53,137 nt of DNA, from IMG/VR virus record IMGVR_UViG_2645727867_000003. One strand, 5' to 3'. The stretch comes from a virus. Its lineage: Duplodnaviria > Heunggongvirae > Uroviricota > Caudoviricetes. Positions 3,748 through 51,716 of this stretch are shown here, one piece after another. The notes under the pieces are model-generated. The model did not search any database and had not been told where the DNA came from. It saw only the letters and a list, made by a program, of their open reading frames with translations. Position numbers and translations under genes: made by a program. Each line of letters begins with the position of its first letter. The stretch's first letter is position 1.

Positions 3748-3770
3748 GATTACCTCTTTGTTTTCAGTCA

Positions 3771-3796
3771 ATAAAAAAGGCACCACTTCGGGTGCC
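3771..3796 (-). terminator. intrinsic terminator downstream of J
   Basis: Minus-strand hairpin GGCACC-CGAAGT-GGTGCC followed by T6. Confidence 0.5.
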
Positions 3797-3815
3797 CGTC
3801 CGGGTTAATAAACCG

Positions 3816-6800
3816 TCAGCTGATACTGATTCCCGCCGTGGATTTTTTCATCACCACAACCAGTAAATCACTGATGTACGTCGTCGGTGTCCAGTTGTTC
3901 GCGCCGGTAGACGACACATTAAACGTCAGGGTGACATGACCCCGTCCTGCTGGCATGTCAATCACCGATGAGAACACCCGGCTGACATCCGTTGCCGGTT
4001 CATGAAAAATCTCTGCCCCGTTTTTCAGCACCTGCAGCTTACAGGTTGAATACCAGTACGACTGCTGATTCGGGCTGTTGACGTTCTGGTGTTTCGTCCC
4101 ACGAAACAGCACCGGTGGAATGATAATCTGCCGGTCGAAGCCCTGGTCATCGTAAACCGTGACGGTTATCGTGCCACGGGCATAACTGTTATTCCGGGGA
4201 AAGGCTTTCCCCACCGTCTTCACCAGATCGCCTTCAATCTGGTTCGCAGACAGTTTCCCTCTGATGACACAGTTCTCGTTAATGGTGACATTATTGAGCG
4301 TGCCAGAATTCGCTGTCACAGCTCCGCTGATATCCGCATTGCGGGCCGTCAGCCTGCCCTCCGGCGTCAGGGAGAACGTCGGGGGATTGCCGGATGACGT
4401 GATACTCACCGCAAACAGTCGCTTCAGGAACACGTCGTTCATAAACAGCTGATTCCCCTGCGCCACAAACAGCGGCGTGGTGTTGCCGTTCTCCGGGGTA
4501 ATCATCGCGATACGGTCCGCCTGCAGCAGAATATTGCTCAGCGTCTGGCCATCAGCATCCTCAATCCCCGCACCAATACCGGCAACATACGGAATGCCGT
4601 TTTTCGTTTTCTGCACCTTCAGCATGTACAGCGCTGCCAGCTCATCATTCGTGTCTGACTGGACCTGCTGTATCTGCTGTATGGTGGCGCTCTGGTCTTC
4701 CAGCTTTTTATCCGTGGTCGAGGTGATTTCACTCCCTTTGTCATCCACGTACTGGCGGACCTGCGCTATCTGCCTGGCGTTTTCCTCCGTGCTCTGGCTG
4801 ACTGTCTGTGTGATTTCACTGCTCACCCGGTCCACCTGCTGACTCACCTGCGCGATGGCCAGCGTCTGGTCCTCATTCTTTTTCGCAACCAGCTGCGTGA
4901 GGCTGTTTTCCGCCTCCCCGATTTTTCGGGTCACTTCCGCAACATCCGTCTCCAGCCGCTGGCGGATGTCTTCTTCCAGTTGCGTGACCTCAGTACGCAG
5001 GGCTGACGCATCAATACGCTCTTTCAGTGCCTTCCCCAGCAGCGCCTCATCTATCAGCCCACGGAAAATTTCCAGATACCCTTCACCATCATTGCTGGCC
5101 TGCCCGCTGGCCTCCACAAACGCAGATTTCCCCACCAGGTTGACGCTGCGCACATAAAACCAGAAATCCTTCCCCGGCTTAATGTGCGGGCCGGAGACGC
5201 TCCACTGGCTGCCGGTACCCAGATAACGGGCAGAGGTTTCCACCTGTGCCGTGTCCGTGATGCGTTTTTCTGAGAACCAGAATTCATGCTGTACCGTCGG
5301 GTCATACACCGCAGGATGCGGGACCACCGTTATCTGAAAATAGCCCGGCGTCAGTTCAATGCTGGCCGGTGCCGCCGGTGCATTAATCCGGAATGTGGTG
5401 GTGGCAGGTTCGCCCTGCTGGCCGTAGCTGTTTATCGCCCTGACCGTCAGGGTGTATTCCCCGAGCGGCAGGCCACTGAAACGGTACTCCGTGTCCGCCG
5501 TGATGGCGCTGGTCACCAGGCGGCTGTTCTCACCACTGCCACTGGTCAGGCGCAGACTGAAGCGCACGCCCTTCACCACCCGCGGCGAGTCCCATTTCGC
5601 CAGCGCCAGATACTGGCCGTCTGAGGCACTCACCTCCACCGTGAGGTGCTGCACCGCTGGCGGGATGACGCTGTTCAGTGAGCCGGACATCGGCTCAAAG
5701 CGGGCCCCGTTATCCACAATGGCTTCTTTTTCCGGCACATGCTGCACCGCCGTGATGGCAAAGGTGCCGTCCGTGTTTTCCCGGATGGAAACACAGCGGA
5801 ACAGGCGACGACGCAGTGACGGCAGGGAGAGTCCCCACACACCGTATGTCGCCACGCCATCAGGCAGGACGCTGACCTGTATCCGGTCAGGGGCGGGGTG
5901 TGCAGTGATGTCCACGCGCACCGGCTTACCGCTGCCGTTAATCAGGTTCACCGTCGATGTACCTGTCTCCGGCAGTGTCACCTCACGGTCCAGCGTCAGT
6001 GTGCGGCTGGCGGCATCGATGGACAGGATGCGTCCGCCGGTCAGGGTCCCGGCATAGTCGTTATCACAGATTTCAATGATGTCACCGGGTGTGTGCCGCA
6101 GCCCCTGAGACCCGAGCGTGAAATCCACCGTCTGCGTTTCCAGCAGTTCTGTCTTTATCACCCACAGTCCGGCACGGTGAGCCTGACCGCGGCTGGTACA
6201 GCCGAACGCATCCATCTTCAGCAGGTTGCGCCCGTAGCGCAGGATGGCATCCGGGTCTTCCACCAGTTCCGTGGACGTCTGCCAGCCGTTCTGCGGGTCG
6301 GTGTAATTCACCTCCACCGCCGTGTGCCGGTCCTTCAGGGCACTGAAGCTGTAGCGGAACCCCACGCCGTTATCATCCACCACCACATCGCTGTTGGTGT
6401 ACGGCCACACCACATCCGACGGACGGTCCTGAACGAACGTCAGCGTCTGGCCGTTCCATACCGGCATACAGCGCATCGCCGAGCAGAAATCCCCCAGGAC
6501 ATCCCACACCTTACGCTGCTGTGACAGGTACGCATTAAAGGTCATCCGCGGCTCTGTGCCCCCGAAACCATCCGGGACCGTCTGGTCGCAGTACTGCCCG
6601 ATGGCATACAGCGCCCACTTGTCCACATCCGCGGCCCCCAGGCGTTTTCCCATCCCGTAGCGCGGGTGGGTCAGCATGTCCCACAGGCACCAGGCCGGGT
6701 TATTGCTGTATGCCGGTTTCAGACTCCCGTCCCAGATACCGCTGTAGGTGCGTTTTTCCGGGGCATAGTTTGACGGCACCTGAATGATGCGGCCGCGGAT

Positions 6801-41224: not shown

Positions 41225-41597
41225 ATGCGAATTTTCAAAAACGCCTGGTTTGAACGTTTCGCCCGAAAACATCGGATTTCCGATAAATCGCTGCGCAAAA
41301 TCGTGGAGCAGGCCGATAAGGGGGATCATATCCGCAAATTTGGGTAGTGGTGTCATTAAACAAAGATTAGCCCGAAGTGGTGGCGGAAAATCAGGCGGTT
41401 ACCGGACAATAATTTTTTACCGCGTTGCAGAAAAAGCCTTTTTCATCTACGCATACGCAAAGAATGAACGAGAGAATATCACTGCTATAGAGGAAAATGC
41501 TTTTCGAAAAGCCGCTCCCCATGTCCTCAATCTTACTGATGAACAGCTGGCACAATTGATTCAACAAGGCCAGTTCACGGAGGTACCCAATGAGTAA
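41225..41597 (+). pseudogene. HigB/RelE-like toxin gene interrupted by a +1 frameshift in a G5 tract
   Basis: Frame A from ATG 41225 reads MRIFKNAWFERFARKHRISDKSLRKIVEQADKGDHIRKFG* (stop at 41345). The rest of the family sequence (…GVIKQRLARSGGGKSGGYRTIIFYRV…) continues in frame B. The shift maps to GGGGG at 41310-41314. Confidence 0.6.
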
Positions 41598-41907
41598 AAA
41601 TTACCGCAGTGATGCACTTGCATCTGTACATGAAATGATGGAGTCACTCCATGATATCGGTGCAATCACAAAACAAACTATGCGCGAATTCGATGAAACT
41701 TGTCTTCAGCCTGCGCCGGTAATGTCTCCAGAAAGGATCCGTGCACTGCGAGAACGAGAGCATCTGTCTCAACCTGTTTTTGCCAGATACCTCAACGTCA
41801 GTAAAAACCTGATATCAGACTGGGAACGAGGAGTGAAACGCCCGGGAGGTGCAGCTCTTCGGCTTCTTTCAGTTGTCGAGAAAAACGGGATCCAGGTAAT
41901 ATCCTGA
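41590..41907 (+). CDS. HigA-like antitoxin (XRE-family HTH)
   Basis: …LSQPVFARYLNVSKNLISDWERGVKRPGGAALRLL… HTH. Start overlaps the toxin stop. Confidence 0.7.
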   Translation: MSKNYRSDALASVHEMMESLHDIGAITKQTMREFDETCLQPAPVMSPERIRALREREHLSQPVFARYLNVSKNLISDWERGVKRPGGAALRLLSVVEKNGIQVIS

Positions 41908-42009
41908 TATTCTAATACAACAAAACCCGCCGAAGCAGGTTAAGTGCGGGTGCGTTGAGGATGCCTGACACATCAGAGGTGGCGAGGGATTTCTCCCTCG
42001 CCAGGTCTC

Positions 42010-42165
42010 TTACTCCTCAGGTTCGTAAGCTGTGAAGACAGCGACCTCCGTCTGGCCGGTTCGGATTCGTACCTCGCAGAGGTCTTTCCTCGTTACCAGT
42101 GCCGTCATTATGACGGTTAAACAGATGACAATCAGGGCGATTAACATCGCCTTTTGCTGCTTCAT
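42010..42165 (-). CDS. hokD: Hok/Gef-family type I toxin (HokD/RelF-like)
   Basis: MKQQKAMLIALIVICLTVIMTALVTRKDLCEVRIRTGQTEVAVFTAYEPEE. SD AGGAG upstream. Confidence 0.8.
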   Translation of the reverse strand: MKQQKAMLIALIVICLTVIMTALVTRKDLCEVRIRTGQTEVAVFTAYEPEE

Positions 42166-46129: not shown

Positions 46130-46589
46130 GCTTGAAAGCGATTGCTTTTTCTATAAGCTCGTCTGTCTCACGTTCCACAACAGCTGGATCTGCAAAAAGC
46201 AGCCCGGACTCCACCACATCGCCATATTCTTTGTTTAACCCGGCAATCATGTACGTAATGCTTTTTCCGTCAGTAATTTCGCGGTACAACCTGAAATCAC
46301 TAATCCGGATAGCCTCCATAATTGCCGGAATCAGCGCCGTGAATTTTTCACGCTTATCCCTGGTGTCGATAGCCTTCCAGCGTTCGAATATCTTCACCCG
46401 GTTAACGCCAAGCGCACGCTGATCAACCCCGCCATCATCAAGCGTGACACGCTGAACATCGATGTTCGGGCGTTCCTGTAGAGCCCAGAAGGCTTCAGTG
46501 ATTAATATCGTCGCCTGCTCCTGCGTCATTCCTGGTCGGCTTATCCAGGCATCCAGGGCATCGCGTGCCTGCTCAAGGGTGATTTTCAT
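46068..46589 (-). CDS. YdaT-like protein
   Basis: Partial similarity to Rac YdaT as recalled (…REKFTALIPAIMEAI…). Lies directly after the Cro-like gene. Confidence 0.45.
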   Translation of the reverse strand: MKITLEQARDALDAWISRPGMTQEQATILITEAFWALQERPNIDVQRVTLDDGGVDQRALGVNRVKIFERWKAIDTRDKREKFTALIPAIMEAIRISDFRLYREITDGKSITYMIAGLNKEYGDVVESGLLFADPAVVERETDELIEKAIAFKRAYRHQYQQKAGWNYEPSFC

Positions 46590-46803
46590 TGTTCAACCGC
46601 CCCGCCCGCTTCGTCTTACGATATTCGTCATAAACTTTGGGGTCATACTGAAGCTCCCCGCCGGATGCCTCTTGCAGGCGCATCGCGCGACCTTCAGGTA
46701 CTAGCTCCCCTTTCCAGCTATAAAGCGAAGCCAAACGAATACCAGCAGCTTGTGCAAGTTTTGTTTTTGAACCGAAATACAAAAGTGCATCAGTTTTAAG
46801 CAT
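46573..46803 (-). CDS. dicC: DicC-like Cro-type repressor
   Basis: MLKTDALLYFGSKTKLAQAAGIRLASLYSWKGELVPEGRAMRLQEASGGELQYDPKVYDEYRK… is near-identical to E. coli DicC as recalled. Confidence 0.85.
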   Translation of the reverse strand: MLKTDALLYFGSKTKLAQAAGIRLASLYSWKGELVPEGRAMRLQEASGGELQYDPKVYDEYRKTKRAGRLNNENHP

Positions 46804-46886
46804 TTAAAACACCTTGATAGTTAGTCATAGCTAACAAAATAAATGTTAACAAAAACATAGTCAATAAGGTTTAGCATTAGCTAACT
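46804..46886. promoter_or_regulatory. divergent dicC/dicA promoter-operator region
   Basis: Inverted repeats GTTAGTCATAGCTAAC and TTAGCATTAGCTAACTATGG (core TTAGCTAA) between the divergent genes. Confidence 0.6.
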
Positions 46887-47294
46887 ATGGATACAAAAAA
46901 TTTAACCATTGGCGAACGCATTAGACATCGCCGAAAAAACCTCAAATACACCCAAAGGTCTCTTGCTAAAGCCCTGAAAATTTCTCATGTATCGGTTTCA
47001 CAATGGGAACGGGATGTTAGCGAACCTACAGGGAAGAATCTTTTTGCCCTCAGCAACGTACTGCAGTGCTCGCCAACATGGATTCTATTTGGCGATGAAG
47101 ACAAGCAGCCATCACCACCTATTGAGGAGCCAGTTGCTCTATCCCCCAAAGAACATGAGCTCCTTGAGCTTTTTAATGCATTGCCTGAATCAGAACAGGA
47201 TGCTCAGCTCACCGAGATGCGCGCCCGAGTAAAAAATTTCAACAAACTCTTTGAAGAGTTATTAAAAGCCCGTCAACGAACAAACAAAAGATAA
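46887..47294 (+). CDS. dicA: DicA-like CI-type repressor (XRE HTH)
   Basis: MDTKNLTIGERIRHRRKNLKYTQRSLAKALKISHVSVSQWER… 135 aa, near-identical to E. coli DicA as recalled. Confidence 0.9.
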   Translation: MDTKNLTIGERIRHRRKNLKYTQRSLAKALKISHVSVSQWERDVSEPTGKNLFALSNVLQCSPTWILFGDEDKQPSPPIEEPVALSPKEHELLELFNALPESEQDAQLTEMRARVKNFNKLFEELLKARQRTNKR

Positions 47295-47458
47295 CGCAAT
47301 CAATGCGTTATCTTTTTGGCTGACAAAAATGTTAGCCATGGCAAACAAAACACTTGACCGAACTGTTAGCCATGACTAATCTTGCTTACATCAAGACACC
47401 GCACGGTGTTCTCAGCAAACAGTTCCGCTACCCGGCGTTAAGGGCAAATGAGGTCAAC

Positions 47459-47611
47459 ATGGATACACTCAATCTTGGCAACAACGAATCTCTGGTATGC
47501 GGTGTGTTCCCTAACCAGGACGGCACGTTTACCGCGATGACATATACCAGAAGCAAAACGTTTAAAACTGAAGCTGGCGCGCATCGCTGGTTAGCCAGAA
47601 ACACTGACTGA
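47459..47611 (+). CDS. ydfA: YdfA-like small protein
   Basis: MDTLNLGNNESLVCGVFPNQDGTFTAMTYTRSKTFKTEAGAHRWLARNTD. Position after dicA as in Qin. Confidence 0.55.
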   Translation: MDTLNLGNNESLVCGVFPNQDGTFTAMTYTRSKTFKTEAGAHRWLARNTD

Positions 47612-47991
47612 TGAGGTTGACGATGGAATTTAAAGATTTACCAGTACCATTCCAGGATATGGCAGCGAATATAGTTCGTTCTCAACTGGCGACTCTTGAC
47701 CTGAGTACCGTAGAAAAAGAAACCATCGACAATATATCCCATAATGTGCGTAATGCCTTTATCAAGCTGTACGAAGAGAAGCTGAGTTCTGAAAACAAAG
47801 ATTATTCACCTAAATTCACCCCACCCCCAGGTGGAGTGAGTGAGATTTATCATGAAACAATGGTTAAAGCACTACGTATGCAAATAGCCGAACTTGAACA
47901 TAAATTAAATTTAGTTAGTAAGTGCCAAAATCAGCACAAGGCAAAAGGGTTGCACTTTCATCATAAGGGCAAACAAAAATGTGAGCATTAA
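47611..47991 (+). CDS. hypothetical protein (126 aa) in the repressor operon
   Basis: ORF directly after the ydfA-like gene. No recognisable domain. Confidence 0.4.
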   Translation: MRLTMEFKDLPVPFQDMAANIVRSQLATLDLSTVEKETIDNISHNVRNAFIKLYEEKLSSENKDYSPKFTPPPGGVSEIYHETMVKALRMQIAELEHKLNLVSKCQNQHKAKGLHFHHKGKQKCEH

Positions 47992-48217
47992 CACCAACTG
48001 AATTAGCAACAGAAAAGGTTTGTTCAAGTATTTGATTCGAATTGAGCGTTGACTGAATAACGTATGCCCCTGGCAACAATTTATATTCAACGTCACCTTC
48101 ATTAATCATCCTGGAGTATTTAAAATTTGGCATCAGAGTCTCGAACTTTTTCTCCTGTTCCATTGTTGCTTCAAATAACTGCACATGAACATAATATCGA
48201 TTTGATTTAGAGTGCAT
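47915..48217 (-). CDS. hypothetical protein (100 aa), convergent with the repressor operon
   Basis: SD GGAGGAT 5 nt before the ATG at 48217. AT-rich. Confidence 0.4.
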   Translation of the reverse strand: MHSKSNRYYVHVQLFEATMEQEKKFETLMPNFKYSRMINEGDVEYKLLPGAYVIQSTLNSNQILEQTFSVANSVGVNAHIFVCPYDESATLLPCADFGTY

Positions 48218-49244
48218 TTTATCCTCCATAGAGGTTCTGGGTTAAAAATGGAGACCAACACGCTGTCACGTGTGGTCGTGCGCCGGACACGGATAAGAAT
48301 CCGGCACTGACAGTTTACTGAAAGAACATATCCCTGAAAAGTCAGGGCATAACACGAAAGCGCACGGCGAAGTTAGTCTCTCTGTACAGGTCGTCGTTAA
48401 ATTTAATTCGATCGTGCGCTTCCGGTTGTGGCAATCCGCGAAATGGCGCGGCGGTAAGTATGGCTGGGGCTTCCTCCATTACTCCAGAAAATGCACCGGG
48501 TTGTCAGGTTGACCATACGCCTGAGTGACAACACCGCCACAACAATCTCTGTTATCACTTTTCTGGTGATTCGGCGGAAATGGATATCCGCCATTTTTAA
48601 AGTGTATTTTGTGATGCGGTGAATGCGGCTAAGCGCACGCGGAACAGTTAAAACAAGCGGTCTTTTACTGGCGTAACAGACATCAACTAACAATCCGGCG
48701 TTAATTGTTAACTGGTTAACGTCACCTGGAGGCACCAGACACCACATCACAAAATTCATTGTTGAGGACGCGATAATGGAAACGTCACTACCAAACGTTA
48801 ATACGTCTGAAGGGTGTTTTAATATTGGTATTCTGCTCAGTAACCGGGAGTTTACTGAGGACGCCATCAGGATGAGAAAATATGAGCCTTATCTTCTCAA
48901 TGATAATTCCATACTCTCCAGAATTGCCCTTCTTGAACTTGGCATTTTCGGAGGGCAGCAGTGAGTTCAGCGTTTGCACTGATGATGACGGTTTTTCTGA
49001 TAACAGGTGAGCCACAGAATGTGATTACCGGAATTTATGCCAGTAAAGAATCCTGCCATCAGGCAAGAGACGAGCAAAAAATTTCCGGTGAATGTCTCCC
49101 GTTAAACAAAGTATCGCTGTACCTGAATAACGAAATACCGGCTGGATAACCCACCAGCCATATTAACGCCATACCAACGGATTAAAAATGCCAGCAATGG
49201 CAGGGATTCGTTCACCCTGAAATCTGTAATGAGGTTTAAACACA

Positions 49245-51716
49245 ATGAGTAAAATATTTATTTGCGCCGCCATTCCTGACGAACAGGCAATAAAAAACGA
49301 GGGCGCTGTTGCTGTGGCCACTGCCATTGAAGCCGGTGATGAACGTCGCGCCCGCGCAAAATTTCACTGGCAATTCCTTGAACATTATCCGGCTGCTCAG
49401 GACTGCGCTTATAAATTTCTTGTCTGTGAGGATAAACCCGGTACACCCCGCCCAGCCCTCGACTCCTGGGATGCTGAATATATGCTGGAAAACCGCTGGG
49501 ATGAGGCGTCTGCTTCCTTTGTCCCGGTCGAACCTGAATCAGATCCGATGAACGTCACTTTTGACAAGCTGGCCCCTGAAGTACAGAACGCTGTCATGGT
49601 TAAGTTCGATACATGTGAAAACATCACCGTTGATATGGTGATTAGCGCACAGGAATTGTTGCAGGAAGACATGGCAACCTTCGACGGACATATCGTGGAA
49701 GCTTTGATGAAAATGCCAGAAGTTAACGCCATGTATCCGGAGCTTAAGCTGTATGCCATCGGGTGGGTTAAGCATAAATGTAAGCCTAGTGCCAAATGGC
49801 CAGAAATTCAGGCAGAGATGCGCACCTGGAAAAAACGTCGCGAAGCAGAACGAAAAGAAACCGGGAAACATACTTCTGTTGTTGAGCTGGCCCGCGCCAG
49901 AGTCAACCAACAGCACACTGAAAACTCAGCAGCAAAAATCAACCCTGTCACTACTGCCATTCGTCGCGAATACAAGCAGACATGGAAAACCCTGGATGAA
50001 GAGCTGGCTTACGCTCTCTGGCCTGGTGATATTGATGCCGGAAACATTGACGGTACCATCCATCGCTGGGCTAAAAATGAGGTTATCGACAAGGATCGCG
50101 AAGACTGGAAGCGTATCTCTGCATCAATGCGCAAACAGCCTGATGCGCTTCGCTATGACCGTCAGACTATTTTTGGCCTTGTTCGTGAGCGCCCGATCGA
50201 CATTCACAAAGATCCCGTTGCACTGAACAAATACATCAGCGAATACCTGACGACAAAGGGCGTGTTTGAACATGAAGAAACAGACCAGAGCTCTGCTGAT
50301 GCTATCCTGTCGTCAGCAGCACAAACTGATCCAGTGGAGACGGCGGAATCCAATTCTCAAAAAAATGAAATCCTGGTGGAAGCTGAACCATCTGTAGAGC
50401 GTGAAGGACCGTTTTATTTCGTCTTTACCGATAAGGACGGGGAAAAATACGGCAGGGCAAACAAACTTTCTGGCCTGGACAAGGCGCTGGCTGCCGGTGG
50501 TACCGAAATCTCAAAAGAAGAATATTTTGCCCGAAAAAATGGCACATATACGGGCTTACAGCAAAATACAGATACCGCAGAAGATTCAGAACAACCAGAG
50601 CCGGTAAAAGTTACCGCTGACGAAGTAAACAAAATTATGCAGGCAGCCAATATCAGCCAGCCTGACACCGATAAATTGCTTGCTGCATCACGTGGTGAAT
50701 TTGTTGAAGGGATTAGCGACCCGAATGATCCGAAATGGGTTAAGGGGATTGAAACCCGCGATTCTGTGAACCAGAACCAGCCCGAATCGGAACAAAACGA
50801 CCAGAAAGCGGAACAAAACAGTCCAAATGCGTTACAAAACGAGCCAGAAACGAAACTGCCTGAACCAGAAGTGCAACAAGAACCGGAAAAAGTTTGCACC
50901 GCATGCGGTCAGACCGGTGGCGGCAACTGTCCTGACTGTGGTGCGGTGATGGGGAACGCAACCAACCAGGAAACATTCGATGAAGAGAATCAGGCTGAAG
51001 CTCAGGAAAATGATCCGGAGGAAATGGAAGGCACTGAACATCTGCACAAGGAGAACACTGTCAGCGATCAGTATCACGCCAGCGATAATAAAACTGGCGA
51101 GACAGCAAATCCCTTAATTAAAGTGAACGGTCATCATGAAATCACATCCACCAGCAGGTTGTGGCACCATCTGATGATTGACCTTGAAACAATGGGAAAA
51201 AATCCTGATGCGCCAATAAACGCTATAGCCGGTAAGTTTTTTGATCCGGCAACCGGAGAGATGGGGCCAGAATTCAGCAAAACTATCGATCTGGAAACCG
51301 CAGGCGGGGTCATCGATCGGGGCACCATTAAGTGGTGGCTGAAACAGTCACGCGAAGCACAATCCGCCATTCTGACCGATGAAATCCCGTTGGATGATGC
51401 ACTGCTGCAATTCCGGGAATTTATCGACGAAAACTCCGGTGAATTTTTTGTTCAGGTCTGGGGTAACGGTGCAACTTTCGACAACGTGATTTTACGCCGT
51501 TCATATGAACGGCAGGGGATCCCCTGCCCGTGGCGTTACACCAATGATCGCGATGTAAGAACGATGGTTGCTCTGGGACTGGTGATGGATTTCGACGCAA
51601 GAACGACTATTCCATTCGAAGGTGAACGCCATAACGCGCTGCACGATGCGCGTTACCAGGCAAAATACGTTTCAGCCATCTGGCAAAAACTGATCCCGAG
51701 TCAGGCTGATTTTTAA
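49245..51716 (+). CDS. large early protein with C-terminal DnaQ-like (DEDDh) 3'-5' exonuclease domain and central Cys4 zinc ribbon
   Basis: C-terminal motifs MIDLETMG (Exo I), VWGNGATFD (Exo II), HNALHDARY (Exo III); CTACGQ…CPDCG zinc ribbon; acidic linker. Confidence 0.7.
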   Translation: MSKIFICAAIPDEQAIKNEGAVAVATAIEAGDERRARAKFHWQFLEHYPAAQDCAYKFLVCEDKPGTPRPALDSWDAEYMLENRWDEASASFVPVEPESDPMNVTFDKLAPEVQNAVMVKFDTCENITVDMVISAQELLQEDMATFDGHIVEALMKMPEVNAMYPELKLYAIGWVKHKCKPSAKWPEIQAEMRTWKKRREAERKETGKHTSVVELARARVNQQHTENSAAKINPVTTAIRREYKQTWKTLDEELAYALWPGDIDAGNIDGTIHRWAKNEVIDKDREDWKRISASMRKQPDALRYDRQTIFGLVRERPIDIHKDPVALNKYISEYLTTKGVFEHEETDQSSADAILSSAAQTDPVETAESNSQKNEILVEAEPSVEREGPFYFVFTDKDGEKYGRANKLSGLDKALAAGGTEISKEEYFARKNGTYTGLQQNTDTAEDSEQPEPVKVTADEVNKIMQAANISQPDTDKLLAASRGEFVEGISDPNDPKWVKGIETRDSVNQNQPESEQNDQKAEQNSPNALQNEPETKLPEPEVQQEPEKVCTACGQTGGGNCPDCGAVMGNATNQETFDEENQAEAQENDPEEMEGTEHLHKENTVSDQYHASDNKTGETANPLIKVNGHHEITSTSRLWHHLMIDLETMGKNPDAPINAIAGKFFDPATGEMGPEFSKTIDLETAGGVIDRGTIKWWLKQSREAQSAILTDEIPLDDALLQFREFIDENSGEFFVQVWGNGATFDNVILRRSYERQGIPCPWRYTNDRDVRTMVALGLVMDFDARTTIPFEGERHNALHDARYQAKYVSAIWQKLIPSQADF

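What the first reader, a model, noticed from the sequence alone, without database searches (positions are those of the whole stretch)
47611..48217. Convergent, overlapping unknown genes immediately downstream of the repressor operon
The position downstream of the CI-like repressor is where lambda carries rexAB (lysogen-expressed exclusion genes). Here a 126-aa plus-strand ORF follows the ydfA-like gene and overlaps by ~77 nt a convergent 100-aa minus-strand gene with a strong SD. Lysogen-expressed genes of unknown function at this site are candidates for superinfection exclusion.
Basis: inference. Interest (0 to 1): 0.4.

Follow-up and report, generated by a model that had tools for sequence, protein, structure and literature searches.

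The report
ymfJ/ymfI-type convergent prophage gene pair
The two overlapping genes are real and match the uncharacterised ymfJ/ymfI pair of the E. coli K-12 e14 prophage; the forward gene is a repressed early gene rather than a lysogen-expressed one, and the unannotated reverse gene encodes a small protein predicted to fold like the RNA-cutting antitoxin GhoS.

Summary
A plus ORF (47611/47623-47991) and a minus ORF (47915-48217, GGAGG Shine-Dalgarno) converge and overlap by 77 nt. Both are under purifying selection.

The window is a Qin-like (DicA/DicC immunity) prophage at ompW. dicA ends in a strong terminator. The ydfA-like gene and the plus ORF then lie behind an orthologue of dicBp, the DicA-repressed promoter of the dicBF early operon. 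The plus ORF is therefore a repressed early gene, not a rexAB-like lysogenic gene.

RefSeq does not annotate the minus gene. It is a YmfI-family protein, 56% identical to K-12 e14 YmfI. The last ~35 conserved residues of the plus ORF match the C-terminus of e14 YmfJ. The two features always co-occurred, convergent and overlapping by 14-77 nt, in all IMG/VR and GTDB loci found with either query.

Function is untested. I favour a mutually exclusive ("excludon") switch involving a small RNA-directed protein. A role in exclusion remains possible for the minus gene only.

The parts
46573..46803 (-). dicC / Cro-like regulator (76 aa)
   Evidence: Pfam P22_Cro E 1e-11. PGAP annotates it as 'dicB transcriptional regulator DicC'.
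46887..47294 (+). dicA-like CI-type repressor (135 aa)
   Evidence: Pfam HTH_3 E 2e-15. PGAP gene name dicA.
46821..46885 (.). Two operator-like palindromes (46821-46835 and 46871-46885) between dicC and dicA
   Evidence: TTAGCNNNNGCTAA with at most 1 mismatch occurs only four times in the whole window, all in the immunity region. Repeat family D1.
47286..47316 (.). Terminator after dicA: 13-bp perfect stem flanked by an A-run and a T-run, so potentially bidirectional
   Evidence: Inverted repeat I6, 100% complementary. Flagged as terminator-like on the minus strand. On the plus strand the stem is followed by TCTTTTTGG.
47332..47382 (+). dicBp-type early promoter (-35 TTGACC 47354-47359, -10 TAATCT 47377-47382) with two operator-like palindromes (47332-47346, 47365-47379)
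   Evidence: The stretch is 91% identical to the K-12 dicA-3'/ydfA region, including both hexamers and both operators. Operator matches. dicBp is DicA-repressed in K-12 (PMC10448788).
47459..47611 (+). ydfA-like DUF1391 gene (50 aa), first gene of the early operon
   Evidence: Pfam DUF1391 E 4e-29. PGAP coordinates.
47623..47991 (+). 122-aa early-operon protein (alternative ATG at 47611). Residues 1-59 form an N-terminal helical hairpin, 61-72 a disordered Pro-rich linker, 73-107 a YmfJ-type C-terminal helix, and 102-122 an unconserved tail.
   Evidence: phrog_6937, phrog_1363, phrog_9419 and phrog_2151 match only residues 1-66; phrog_12693 (the YmfJ family) matches residues 75-100. 47% identity to the e14 YmfJ C-terminus. 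AlphaFold model. Mosaic C-termini among homologues.
47915..48217 (-). 100-aa YmfI-family gene, not annotated in RefSeq, with a predicted GhoS/Cas2-like ferredoxin fold
47915..47991 (.). 77-nt convergent 3' overlap of the two coding regions
   Evidence: Coordinates. The overlap is 14-77 nt in all 47 related loci.
48218..48277 (-). 5' region of the YmfI-like gene: SD GGAGG at 48227-48223 and a weak promoter candidate, GTGACA (48269-48264)-17-TTTAAC (48246-48241). This is the right-hand end of the low-GC cassette.
   Evidence: Sequence. Homology with the K-12 ydfC-dicF spacer begins near 48277. GC is 0.355-0.38 in the cassette and 0.45-0.51 in the flanks. The promoter assignment is my inference and is weak.
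48560..48598 (+). dicF-like sRNA gene with an internal deletion, ending in a terminator hairpin; next element of the same early operon
   Evidence: Alignment to K-12 dicF. Terminator-like site at 48573-48592.
48776..48964 (+). dicB cell-division inhibitor, downstream in the same operon
   Evidence: NCBIfam CellDivInhibDicB E 1e-29, above the cut-off. PGAP annotation.

Best explanation
SHOWN: The region holds a roughly 480-bp, low-GC cassette (about 47800-48277) of the same kind as ymfJ/ymfI in the K-12 cryptic prophage e14. Here it sits inside the DicA-repressed dicBF-type early operon of a Qin-like prophage integrated at ompW. The plus gene (122 aa) is the second gene of that operon. It is a mosaic of a common N-terminal helical-hairpin domain and a YmfJ-type C-terminal helix. 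The minus gene (100 aa) is a YmfI-family protein with its own Shine-Dalgarno sequence. It is transcribed head-on against the operon. Its stop lies inside the partner's 3' end, so no terminator can separate the two transcription units.

INFERRED: The two genes form a mutually exclusive ('excludon') switch. While DicA keeps dicBp shut, the YmfI-like gene can be expressed, and its transcript runs antisense through orf122 and ydfA toward the bidirectional dicA terminator. When dicBp fires, early transcription reads antisense through the YmfI-like gene on its way to dicF and dicB, and silences it. The YmfI-like protein has a GhoS/Cas2-like fold, so I take it to be a small RNA-binding protein or endoribonuclease active in the lysogenic state. 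The YmfJ-type helix travels with it in every close relative, so that helix is most likely its protein partner or antagonist made at induction.

Which RNAs the protein acts on is unknown. They could be leaky early-operon mRNA carrying dicF/dicB or kil, or RNA of incoming phages.

My sub-confidences are: identity as a ymfJ/ymfI cassette in a repressed early operon, about 0.9; excludon-type mutual exclusion, about 0.5; RNA-directed activity of the YmfI-like protein, about 0.4; direct protein-protein coupling, about 0.3.
For: Operon placement:
- A terminator follows dicA. The next promoter is orthologous to dicBp and carries operators.
- The PGAP gene order is dicC, dicA, DUF1391, hypothetical, dicB, DUF1482, exonuclease, xis, int, ompW.
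- K-12 dicBp is DicA-repressed (PMC10448788).

Identity with the e14 pair:
- YmfI identity is 56%. The YmfJ C-terminus is 47% identical.
- In K-12, ymfI and ymfJ are convergent, overlap by 63 nt, and lie just after the repressor ymfK.
- e14 has the same layout of repressor, terminator, strong promoter TTGACA-16-CATAAT, then ymfJ.

Coupling of the two features:
- All 46 IMG/VR loci found with YmfI carry a convergent partner with the motif (Y/F)H(D/E)T(M/L)(V/I)K(A/C)L, overlapping by 14-77 nt. This holds across at least three partner N-terminal types and several immunity types.
- The reciprocal search with the YmfJ-C module returned 46 of 46 IMG/VR loci and 4 of 4 GTDB loci (Edwardsiella, Scandinavium, E. 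coli) with YmfI on the opposite strand.

Other support:
- Both genes are under purifying selection.
- Expression of the e14 homologues: ymfJ is SOS-induced late with ymfM and intE, while ymfI changes little (PMC11002266; PMC2634741). ymfI-ymfJ is listed in the MG1655 convergent excludome (PMC12288877).
- The cassette is low in GC.
Against: - There is no expression data for this prophage.
- The promoter of the minus gene is only a weak consensus match here. The conserved extended -10 candidate of the e14-type genes is absent.
- Sequence does not link YmfI to GhoS (hhalign probability 0.4%; no Pfam hit; no PDB sequence hit). I could not establish conservation of GhoS catalytic residues.
- Ferredoxin-like folds serve many functions.
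- The coupling breaks down in the two most divergent YmfI relatives. In L105 (34% identity) the convergent overlapping partner lacks the YmfJ motif. In L106/L107 (40% identity) only a degenerate 54-aa remnant is left, with no overlap.
- The excludome listing is nearly automatic for genes whose coding regions overlap.
- Physical linkage alone could explain much of the co-occurrence.
Confidence: 0.6

Rival explanations
1. First reader's model, restricted to the minus gene. The YmfI-like protein is a lysogen-expressed superinfection-exclusion or abortive-infection factor, a moron comparable to sieB of Rac or rexAB of lambda. The convergent arrangement only serves to switch it off during the prophage's own lytic growth.
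For: The gene is oriented against the early operon, has its own SD and lies in a low-GC cassette. The site is a hotspot where other DicA-type prophages carry unrelated convergent small genes. An RNase-like fold is compatible with abortive infection. sieB-ydaF of Rac is listed as a similar convergent excludon.
Against: PADLOC gives no hit. The protein is absent from all 50,697 isolated phage genomes and is rare overall. No phenotype is reported for ymfI among the papers found. The plus gene is clearly not lysogen-expressed.
Confidence: 0.2
2. Type V-antitoxin-like safeguard. The YmfI-like protein works like GhoS: in the lysogen it cleaves leaky polycistronic early mRNA, possibly within the always-linked YmfJ-C coding segment. 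This keeps the downstream toxic genes (dicF/dicB here, kil elsewhere) silent.
For: GhoS is the closest structure by a clear margin. Cell-division inhibitors lie just downstream in the operon: dicF/dicB here, a Kil protein (phrog_294, E 2e-25) in L026/L058, and KilR in L105 and L106. Strict linkage to the YmfJ-C segment would be expected if that segment were the RNA target.
Against: Most e14-type loci have no recognisable Kil or DicB downstream. The YmfJ-C segment is under protein-level purifying selection. No GhoT-like membrane toxin is co-transcribed with the gene. Conservation of GhoS catalytic residues is not demonstrated. K-12 Qin controls dicBF without any YmfI homologue.
Confidence: 0.2
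3. No functional coupling. These are two independent small genes of unknown function that recombination cannot separate because their 3' ends abut. The overlap is an accident of stop-codon drift.
For: The overlap length varies from 14 to 77 nt and the plus-ORF tail is unconserved. The most divergent YmfI relatives lack the YmfJ-type partner. Lambdoid early regions are highly mosaic.
Against: The conserved YmfJ-C module extends about 100 nt beyond the YmfI stop. Mosaic junctions nevertheless always fall upstream of it, across at least three partner N-terminal types and several immunity types, in every close relative found with either query.
Confidence: 0.2
4. The minus-strand ORF is not a gene, which is the implicit view of the RefSeq annotation.
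For: PGAP does not call it in NZ_CP009106.2. It scores below the NCBIfam equivalog cut-off.
Against: dN/dS is 0.13-0.34 with saturated dS across relatives. There is a full-length PHROG match and 56% identity to the annotated K-12 YmfI. The fold prediction is confident. A strong SD is present.
Confidence: 0.03

Closest known systems
ymfJ / ymfI of E. coli K-12 cryptic prophage e14 (b1144 / b1143), both uncharacterised
   Same: The small proteins are homologous: YmfI is 56% identical, and the YmfJ C-terminal helix is 47% identical. Both pairs are convergent with overlapping 3' ends. Both lie directly after the CI-like repressor gene, a terminator and an early promoter.
   Different: The partner here has a different N-terminal domain (MEFKDLP..., phrog_6937 type) in place of the YmfJ N-terminus. 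A ydfA gene precedes it. The immunity region is DicA/DicC rather than CohE/CroE. dicF and dicB follow it. The overlap is 77 nt rather than 63 nt. The YmfI C-terminal extension is missing. The conserved e14-type promoter candidate upstream of ymfI is absent.
GhoS (YjdK), type V antitoxin endoribonuclease of GhoT/GhoS (PDB 2LLZ)
   Different: Identity is 12-13%, and no profile-level similarity is detectable. ghoS is co-transcribed with the membrane toxin gene ghoT. Here there is no GhoT-like gene and the neighbour is convergent. RNase activity is untested.
Cas2 / VapD ferredoxin-fold nucleases
   Different: The match is much weaker than to GhoS, in the range of generic ferredoxin-like hits. There is no CRISPR or VapX/VapW context.
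dicBF operon of the Qin cryptic prophage (ydfABC-dicF-dicB-ydfDE under DicA-repressed dicBp)
   Same: The promoter and operator region is orthologous (91%). ydfA, the pre-dicF spacer (86%), dicF and dicB are all present.
   Different: ydfB and ydfC are replaced by the orf122/YmfI-like cassette. dicF carries a 19-nt internal deletion.
Lambda rexAB, and sieB of Rac and lambda (lysogen-expressed exclusion genes near the immunity region)
   Same: They lie close to the repressor gene. sieB of Rac is likewise convergent to an early-left gene and is listed as the excludon sieB-ydaF.
   Different: rexAB is co-transcribed with cI. Here a terminator and an operator-controlled promoter intervene, and no defence-model hit was found.
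Excludons (convergent genes with overlapping transcripts and mutually exclusive expression)
   Same: The genes are convergent and there is no space for a terminator between them. ymfI-ymfJ is in the MG1655 excludome.
   Different: Here the coding regions themselves overlap. Reciprocal regulation has not been measured for this locus.

Membership tests
YmfI family (NCBIfam NF051477 / phrog_8894) | Full-length match to the family HMM | tested here: met
   phrog_8894 E 6.6e-34, covering residues 10-100 of the 104-aa ORF against model positions 2-93 of 94. NF051477 E 8e-32, model positions 2-89 of 89.
YmfI family (NCBIfam NF051477 / phrog_8894) | Score above the NCBIfam equivalog cut-off (140 bits) | tested here: not met
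   The score is 109.6 bits. The protein is a divergent subfamily, 56% identical to K-12 YmfI, not an equivalog.
ymfJ/ymfI cassette (e14 type) | Convergent partner that carries the YmfJ C-terminal module and overlaps at the 3' end | tested here: met
   (phrog_12693 matches residues 75-100 of the plus ORF). The overlap is 77 nt.
ymfJ/ymfI cassette (e14 type) | Position directly after the CI-type repressor gene, a terminator and an early promoter | tested here: met
   Window. e14.
GhoS (Pfam PF11080) / type V toxin-antitoxin | GhoS-like three-dimensional fold | tested here: met
GhoS (Pfam PF11080) / type V toxin-antitoxin | Sequence or profile similarity to GhoS | tested here: not met
   No Pfam hit at E <= 0.1. 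hhalign probability 0.4%. No PDB sequence hit.
GhoS (Pfam PF11080) / type V toxin-antitoxin | Adjacent co-transcribed GhoT-like small membrane toxin whose mRNA is the target | tested here: not met
   There is no such ORF next to the gene in the window. The flanks vary among related loci. In K-12, ghoS is followed by ghoT.
GhoS (Pfam PF11080) / type V toxin-antitoxin | Endoribonuclease activity and catalytic residues (R28 of GhoS, PMC4010927) | not testable with these tools
   No reliable residue-level alignment could be made. This needs coordinates or biochemistry.
dicBF-type early operon (for the plus ORF) | Located behind a DicA-operator-controlled dicBp and upstream of dicF and dicB on the same strand | tested here: met
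   Repression itself is known only from K-12 (PMC10448788).
Lambda RexAB-like lysogenic exclusion operon | Co-transcription with the repressor gene | tested here: not met
   A terminator at 47286-47316 and a separate promoter lie between dicA and these genes.
Lambda RexAB-like lysogenic exclusion operon | Similarity to known defence proteins | tested here: not met
   PADLOC gives no hit for either protein.
Excludon | Overlapping antisense transcripts with reciprocal expression | tested here: inconclusive
   The coding overlap makes transcript overlap unavoidable. RNA evidence exists only for the e14 homologues.

The most novel reading that the evidence does not exclude
The YmfJ-C helix and YmfI form a previously unrecognised two-component prophage module. 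In this reading, a GhoS-fold endoribonuclease is made only in the lysogen and acts either as an abortive-infection or exclusion effector or as a silencer of toxic early transcripts. At induction, its dedicated neutraliser is supplied in two ways at once: convergent antisense transcription and a helical antagonist peptide fused to whichever early protein lies upstream. That would make it a toxin/antidote-like or type V-like system wired as an excludon.
Probability: 0.2. Interest if true: 0.65.

Novelty: new member of a known kind. Interest (0 to 1): 0.42.

Why it matters
- It corrects the regulatory reading of this locus: these genes belong to a repressed early operon, not to the repressor operon.
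- It recovers a real gene that RefSeq annotation omits.
- It gives the first structural lead, to my knowledge, for the K-12 y-gene ymfI, namely a GhoS/Cas2-like fold.
- It shows that YmfI is tied to a short helical module of its convergent neighbour across different prophage backbones.

If the pair turns out to be an RNase-based switch placed just upstream of cell-division inhibitors (dicF/dicB, kil), it would be a new layer of control of toxic prophage genes, or a new exclusion module. It could be tested directly in K-12 with existing e14 strains.

Tried and rejected
- Pfam gave no hit for either protein, and PADLOC gave none.
- Rfam at E <= 1 over 46500-49400 gave only sub-threshold hits. 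Nothing relevant fell in 47611-48217, and dicF itself was not detected.
- hhalign of the YmfI alignment against GhoS, and a profile search of PDB sequences, showed no similarity.
- Foldseek against BFVD gave nothing below E 1e-3. The afdb50 library was unavailable.
- tblastn of the YmfI-like protein against 50,697 isolated phage genomes gave no match.
- The word-indexed protein search found only 4 near-identical relatives. Exhaustive phmmer found only about 6 real relatives among 1.8 billion representatives.
- A search of genome contigs with the YmfI alignment failed because no stretch was conserved enough. I replaced it with the YmfJ-C motif search.
- The plus ORF is not YdfB or YdfC.
- I looked for a GhoT-like toxin next to ymfI and found no consistent one. 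A 36-aa transmembrane peptide occurs in only some loci.
- I tested the idea that ymfI always lies upstream of a kil gene. It holds for the window type, L026/L058, L105 and L106, but not for most e14-type loci.
- The promoter-like site reported by the scan for the minus gene (TTAACC-18-TAAAAT, 48245-48216) runs into the start codon, so I rejected it.
- The 154-aa minus ORF at 48403-48867 is antisense to dicF and dicB and has no family match, so I rejected it as spurious.
Full report
**1. Observation**

The ORF table shows a plus ORF at 47611-47991 (126 aa) and a minus ORF at 47915-48229. The minus ORF has an internal ATG at 48217 that gives 100 aa. On the minus strand, GGAGG lies 5 nt before that ATG.

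All homologues of the plus ORF, and the RefSeq protein WP_024199679.1, begin at MEFKDLP. That corresponds to ATG 47623 and 122 aa, preceded by GAGG.

**2. Where the window comes from, and the operon structure**

The 1.7 kb around the finding is 100% identical to E. coli 94-3024 / O104:H21 CFSAN002236. The RefSeq gene order there is dicC(-), dicA(+), DUF1391/ydfA-like(+), hypothetical 122 aa(+), [an unannotated gap], dicB(+), DUF1482(+), exonuclease, excisionase, integrase, ompW. This is a Qin-like lambdoid prophage integrated at ompW.

Several features separate dicA from the genes downstream:
- dicA (46887-47294) ends in a 13-bp perfect inverted repeat (47286-47316), flanked by an A-run and a T-run.
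- After it comes TTGACC-17 nt-TAATCT (47354-47382).
- The palindrome TTAGCNNNNGCTAA occurs with at most 1 mismatch only four times in the 53-kb window. Two copies lie between dicC and dicA, and two overlap this promoter.
- The stretch 47280-47625 is 91% identical to the K-12 dicA-3'/ydfA region, including both hexamers and both operators.

In K-12 this promoter is dicBp. DicA represses it, a dicA deletion derepresses it 22-fold, and it drives ydfABC-dicF-dicB-ydfDE (PMC10448788). From 48277 onward the window is 86% identical to the K-12 ydfC-dicF-dicB spacer. dicB follows at 48776-48964.

The ydfA-like gene and the 122-aa ORF are therefore the first two genes of a repressor-controlled early operon, the equivalent of lambda PL. 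They are not a continuation of the repressor transcript. This removes the rexAB analogy for the plus-strand gene.

**3. The two proteins**

The minus ORF matches phrog_8894 over its full length (E 7e-34). It also matches the NCBIfam equivalog model 'YmfI family phage protein' (E 8e-32), but at 109.6 bits it falls below the 140-bit cut-off. It is 56% identical over 91 residues to YmfI of the K-12 cryptic prophage e14. PGAP does not annotate it.

The plus ORF is a mosaic:
- Residues 1-66 match four different PHROGs that differ in their C-termini. Its 222 database homologues share about 53% of the length and then diverge into at least three unrelated tails.
- Residues 65-95 are 47% identical to the C-terminus of e14 YmfJ and hit the YmfJ PHROG, phrog_12693.
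- The AlphaFold model shows a confident helical hairpin (residues 8-59, pLDDT above 90), a disordered Pro-rich linker (61-72), a long helix (73-107, pLDDT about 83) and an unstructured tail (111-122, pLDDT 30-42).

Natural variants of the tail stop after residue 101 (P0006; L013, overlap 14 nt) or at residue 125 (P0007). The last roughly 21 codons, which make up most of the 77-nt overlap, are therefore probably unconstrained read-through across the YmfI C-terminal codons.

**4. Both genes are real**

Codon alignments across relatives give dN/dS of 0.13-0.34 for the YmfI core. They give 0.11-0.37 for the 26-codon YmfJ-C module. dS is saturated in the deepest comparisons.

**5. The pairing is conserved**

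In K-12, ymfI (+) and ymfJ (-) converge and overlap by 63 nt, immediately after the repressor ymfK/cohE. e14 also has a terminator after the repressor and a strong promoter (TTGACA-16-CATAAT) before ymfJ.

The two features always co-occurred in the close relatives I could find:
- A YmfI-based scan of IMG/VR returned 46 loci at 43-100% identity.
- Every one has a convergent partner carrying the motif (Y/F)H(D/E)T(M/L)(V/I)K(A/C)L, with a 3' overlap of 14-77 nt. The partner N-termini vary (MEFKDLP type, YmfJ type and others), as do the immunity regions (DicA/DicC, CohE/CroE and others).
- The reciprocal scan with the YmfJ-C module returned 46 IMG/VR loci, all with the YmfI motif on the other strand.
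- The same scan found only 4 loci among 185,579 species-representative genomes: Edwardsiella anguillarum, a Scandinavium MAG and two E. coli. All four have a convergent YmfI.

The unit that travels together is about 47800-48277 in the window. It has lower GC (0.355-0.38) than its flanks (0.45-0.51).

There are limits to the coupling. In the two most divergent YmfI relatives it loosens. In L105 (34% identity) the partner is convergent and overlapping but lacks the motif. In L106/L107 (40% identity) only a degenerate 54-aa remnant is left.

The family is very small and rare:
- about 6 real relatives among 1.8 billion cluster representatives;
- none in 50,697 isolated phage genomes;
- the e14 type in 303 of 5426 complete E. 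coli genomes;
- the window type in about 65 of them.

**6. Fold of the YmfI-like protein**

AlphaFold2 with a 6-sequence alignment gives pLDDT 87 and pTM 0.76. The five models range from 83.6 to 87.0. The topology is beta-alpha-beta-beta-beta-alpha-beta.

- Foldseek gives GhoS as the only hit below E 1e-3 (E 3.6e-5, TM 0.70).

GhoS is the type V antitoxin, an endoribonuclease that cleaves ghoT mRNA and is structurally related to Cas2 (PMC4010927). No sequence-level relationship to GhoS is detectable. No GhoT-like gene accompanies the minus gene. I therefore treat 'works like GhoS' as a lead and do not claim membership of the GhoS family.

**7. Context clues**

At the same site, other DicA-type prophages carry unrelated small genes that are also convergent (L005 69 aa, L007 91 aa). 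The site is thus a hotspot for counter-oriented insertions.

Cell-division inhibitors lie just downstream in the operon in several contexts:
- dicF and dicB here;
- a Kil protein (phrog_294, E 2e-25) in L026/L058;
- KilR in L105 and L106.

Most e14-type loci have no recognisable Kil or DicB downstream.

Published data for the e14 homologues show ymfJ rising late in the SOS response with ymfM and intE (log2FC 4.8), while ymfI changes much less (log2FC 2.0 at the last time point) (PMC11002266; PMC2634741). ymfI-ymfJ belongs to the MG1655 convergent 'excludome' (PMC12288877).

**8. Most likely mechanism**

Shown:
- the identity of the cassette;
- its place in a repressed early operon;
- its obligatory antisense geometry;
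- a GhoS-like predicted fold.

Inferred:
- The two transcription units exclude each other.
- The YmfI-like protein is made while DicA holds dicBp off, and acts on RNA.
- At derepression, read-through from dicBp silences it, and perhaps the YmfJ-type helix of the early protein neutralises it.

The target and physiological role remain open. The candidates are silencing of leaky dicF/dicB or kil transcripts, or interference with incoming phages.

The promoter of the minus gene is the weakest link. e14-type genes share a conserved 70-nt upstream block with a TTCACC-16-TGgTATGCT extended -10 candidate. The window has only GTGACA-17-TTTAAC.

**9. Verdict**

The locus is a new, divergent member of the known but uncharacterised ymfJ/ymfI gene pair. 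Interest is moderate. The structural lead and the strict linkage make a K-12 y-gene pair experimentally approachable, but there is no functional evidence yet.

Noticed in passing
window 48560-48598 (+): The dicF homologue lacks 19 nt (a 2-nt gap and a 17-nt gap) relative to K-12 dicF, inside the region that precedes the terminator stem. The 5' end UUUCUGGUGA and the terminator hairpin are kept. Rfam did not report DicF here even at E <= 1. This may be a functionally altered DicF variant.
   Followed up: partly
window 47992-48775; L001 7193-7976: RefSeq/PGAP leaves a 784-bp gap with no annotation between the 122-aa hypothetical gene and dicB. The gap contains most of the YmfI-family gene (303 bp) and the dicF-like sRNA.
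   Followed up: yes
window 48403-48867 (-); L002 5199-5507 and 5564-5899: A 154-aa minus-strand ORF lies antisense to dicF and dicB and has no family match, so it is probably spurious. Equivalent antisense ORFs are annotated as CDSs in Escherichia phage PhiR42_1.
   Followed up: partly
L005 2163-2372 (-); L007 1822-2097 (-): Other DicA-type prophages carry unrelated small genes (69 aa and 91 aa) at the same site, also convergent to the early operon. In L007 the gene overlaps the upstream gene by 23 nt. The site is a hotspot for counter-oriented cassettes.
   Followed up: partly
L022 ~3755-3862, L041, L045, L048-L051; L106 2043-2183 (all early-operon strand): A conserved 36-46-aa single-transmembrane peptide (MSRNGIRSLVIALAIGLVFWGGLAVEIMYIKGVFNG type; weak phrog_27196 hit) is encoded 270-600 nt downstream of the antisense ymfI in some related loci. 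It could be a small membrane toxin. It is not present in the window.
   Followed up: partly
window 47286-47316: The dicA terminator is a perfect 13-bp palindrome with an A-run on one side and a T-run on the other. It could also stop minus-strand transcripts arriving from the YmfI-like gene before they reach dicA.
   Followed up: no
window ~41225-42165 (L001 426-1366): Upstream in the same prophage there is a split RelE/ParE-family toxin annotation (two adjacent CDSs of 40 aa and 85 aa), an HTH antitoxin-like gene and hokD.
   Followed up: no
window 48591-48808 (+): A sub-threshold Rfam match to the Salmonella sRNA STnc100 (25.6 bits against a gathering score of 47, E 0.007) spans the dicF-dicB spacer.
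   Followed up: no
L003 5420-5497 and the equivalent in 40 IMG/VR loci: About 70 nt upstream of e14-type ymfI is almost invariant across otherwise different flanks. It contains a TTCACC-16-TGgTATGCT extended -10 promoter candidate. The window-type gene lacks this block.
   Followed up: partly
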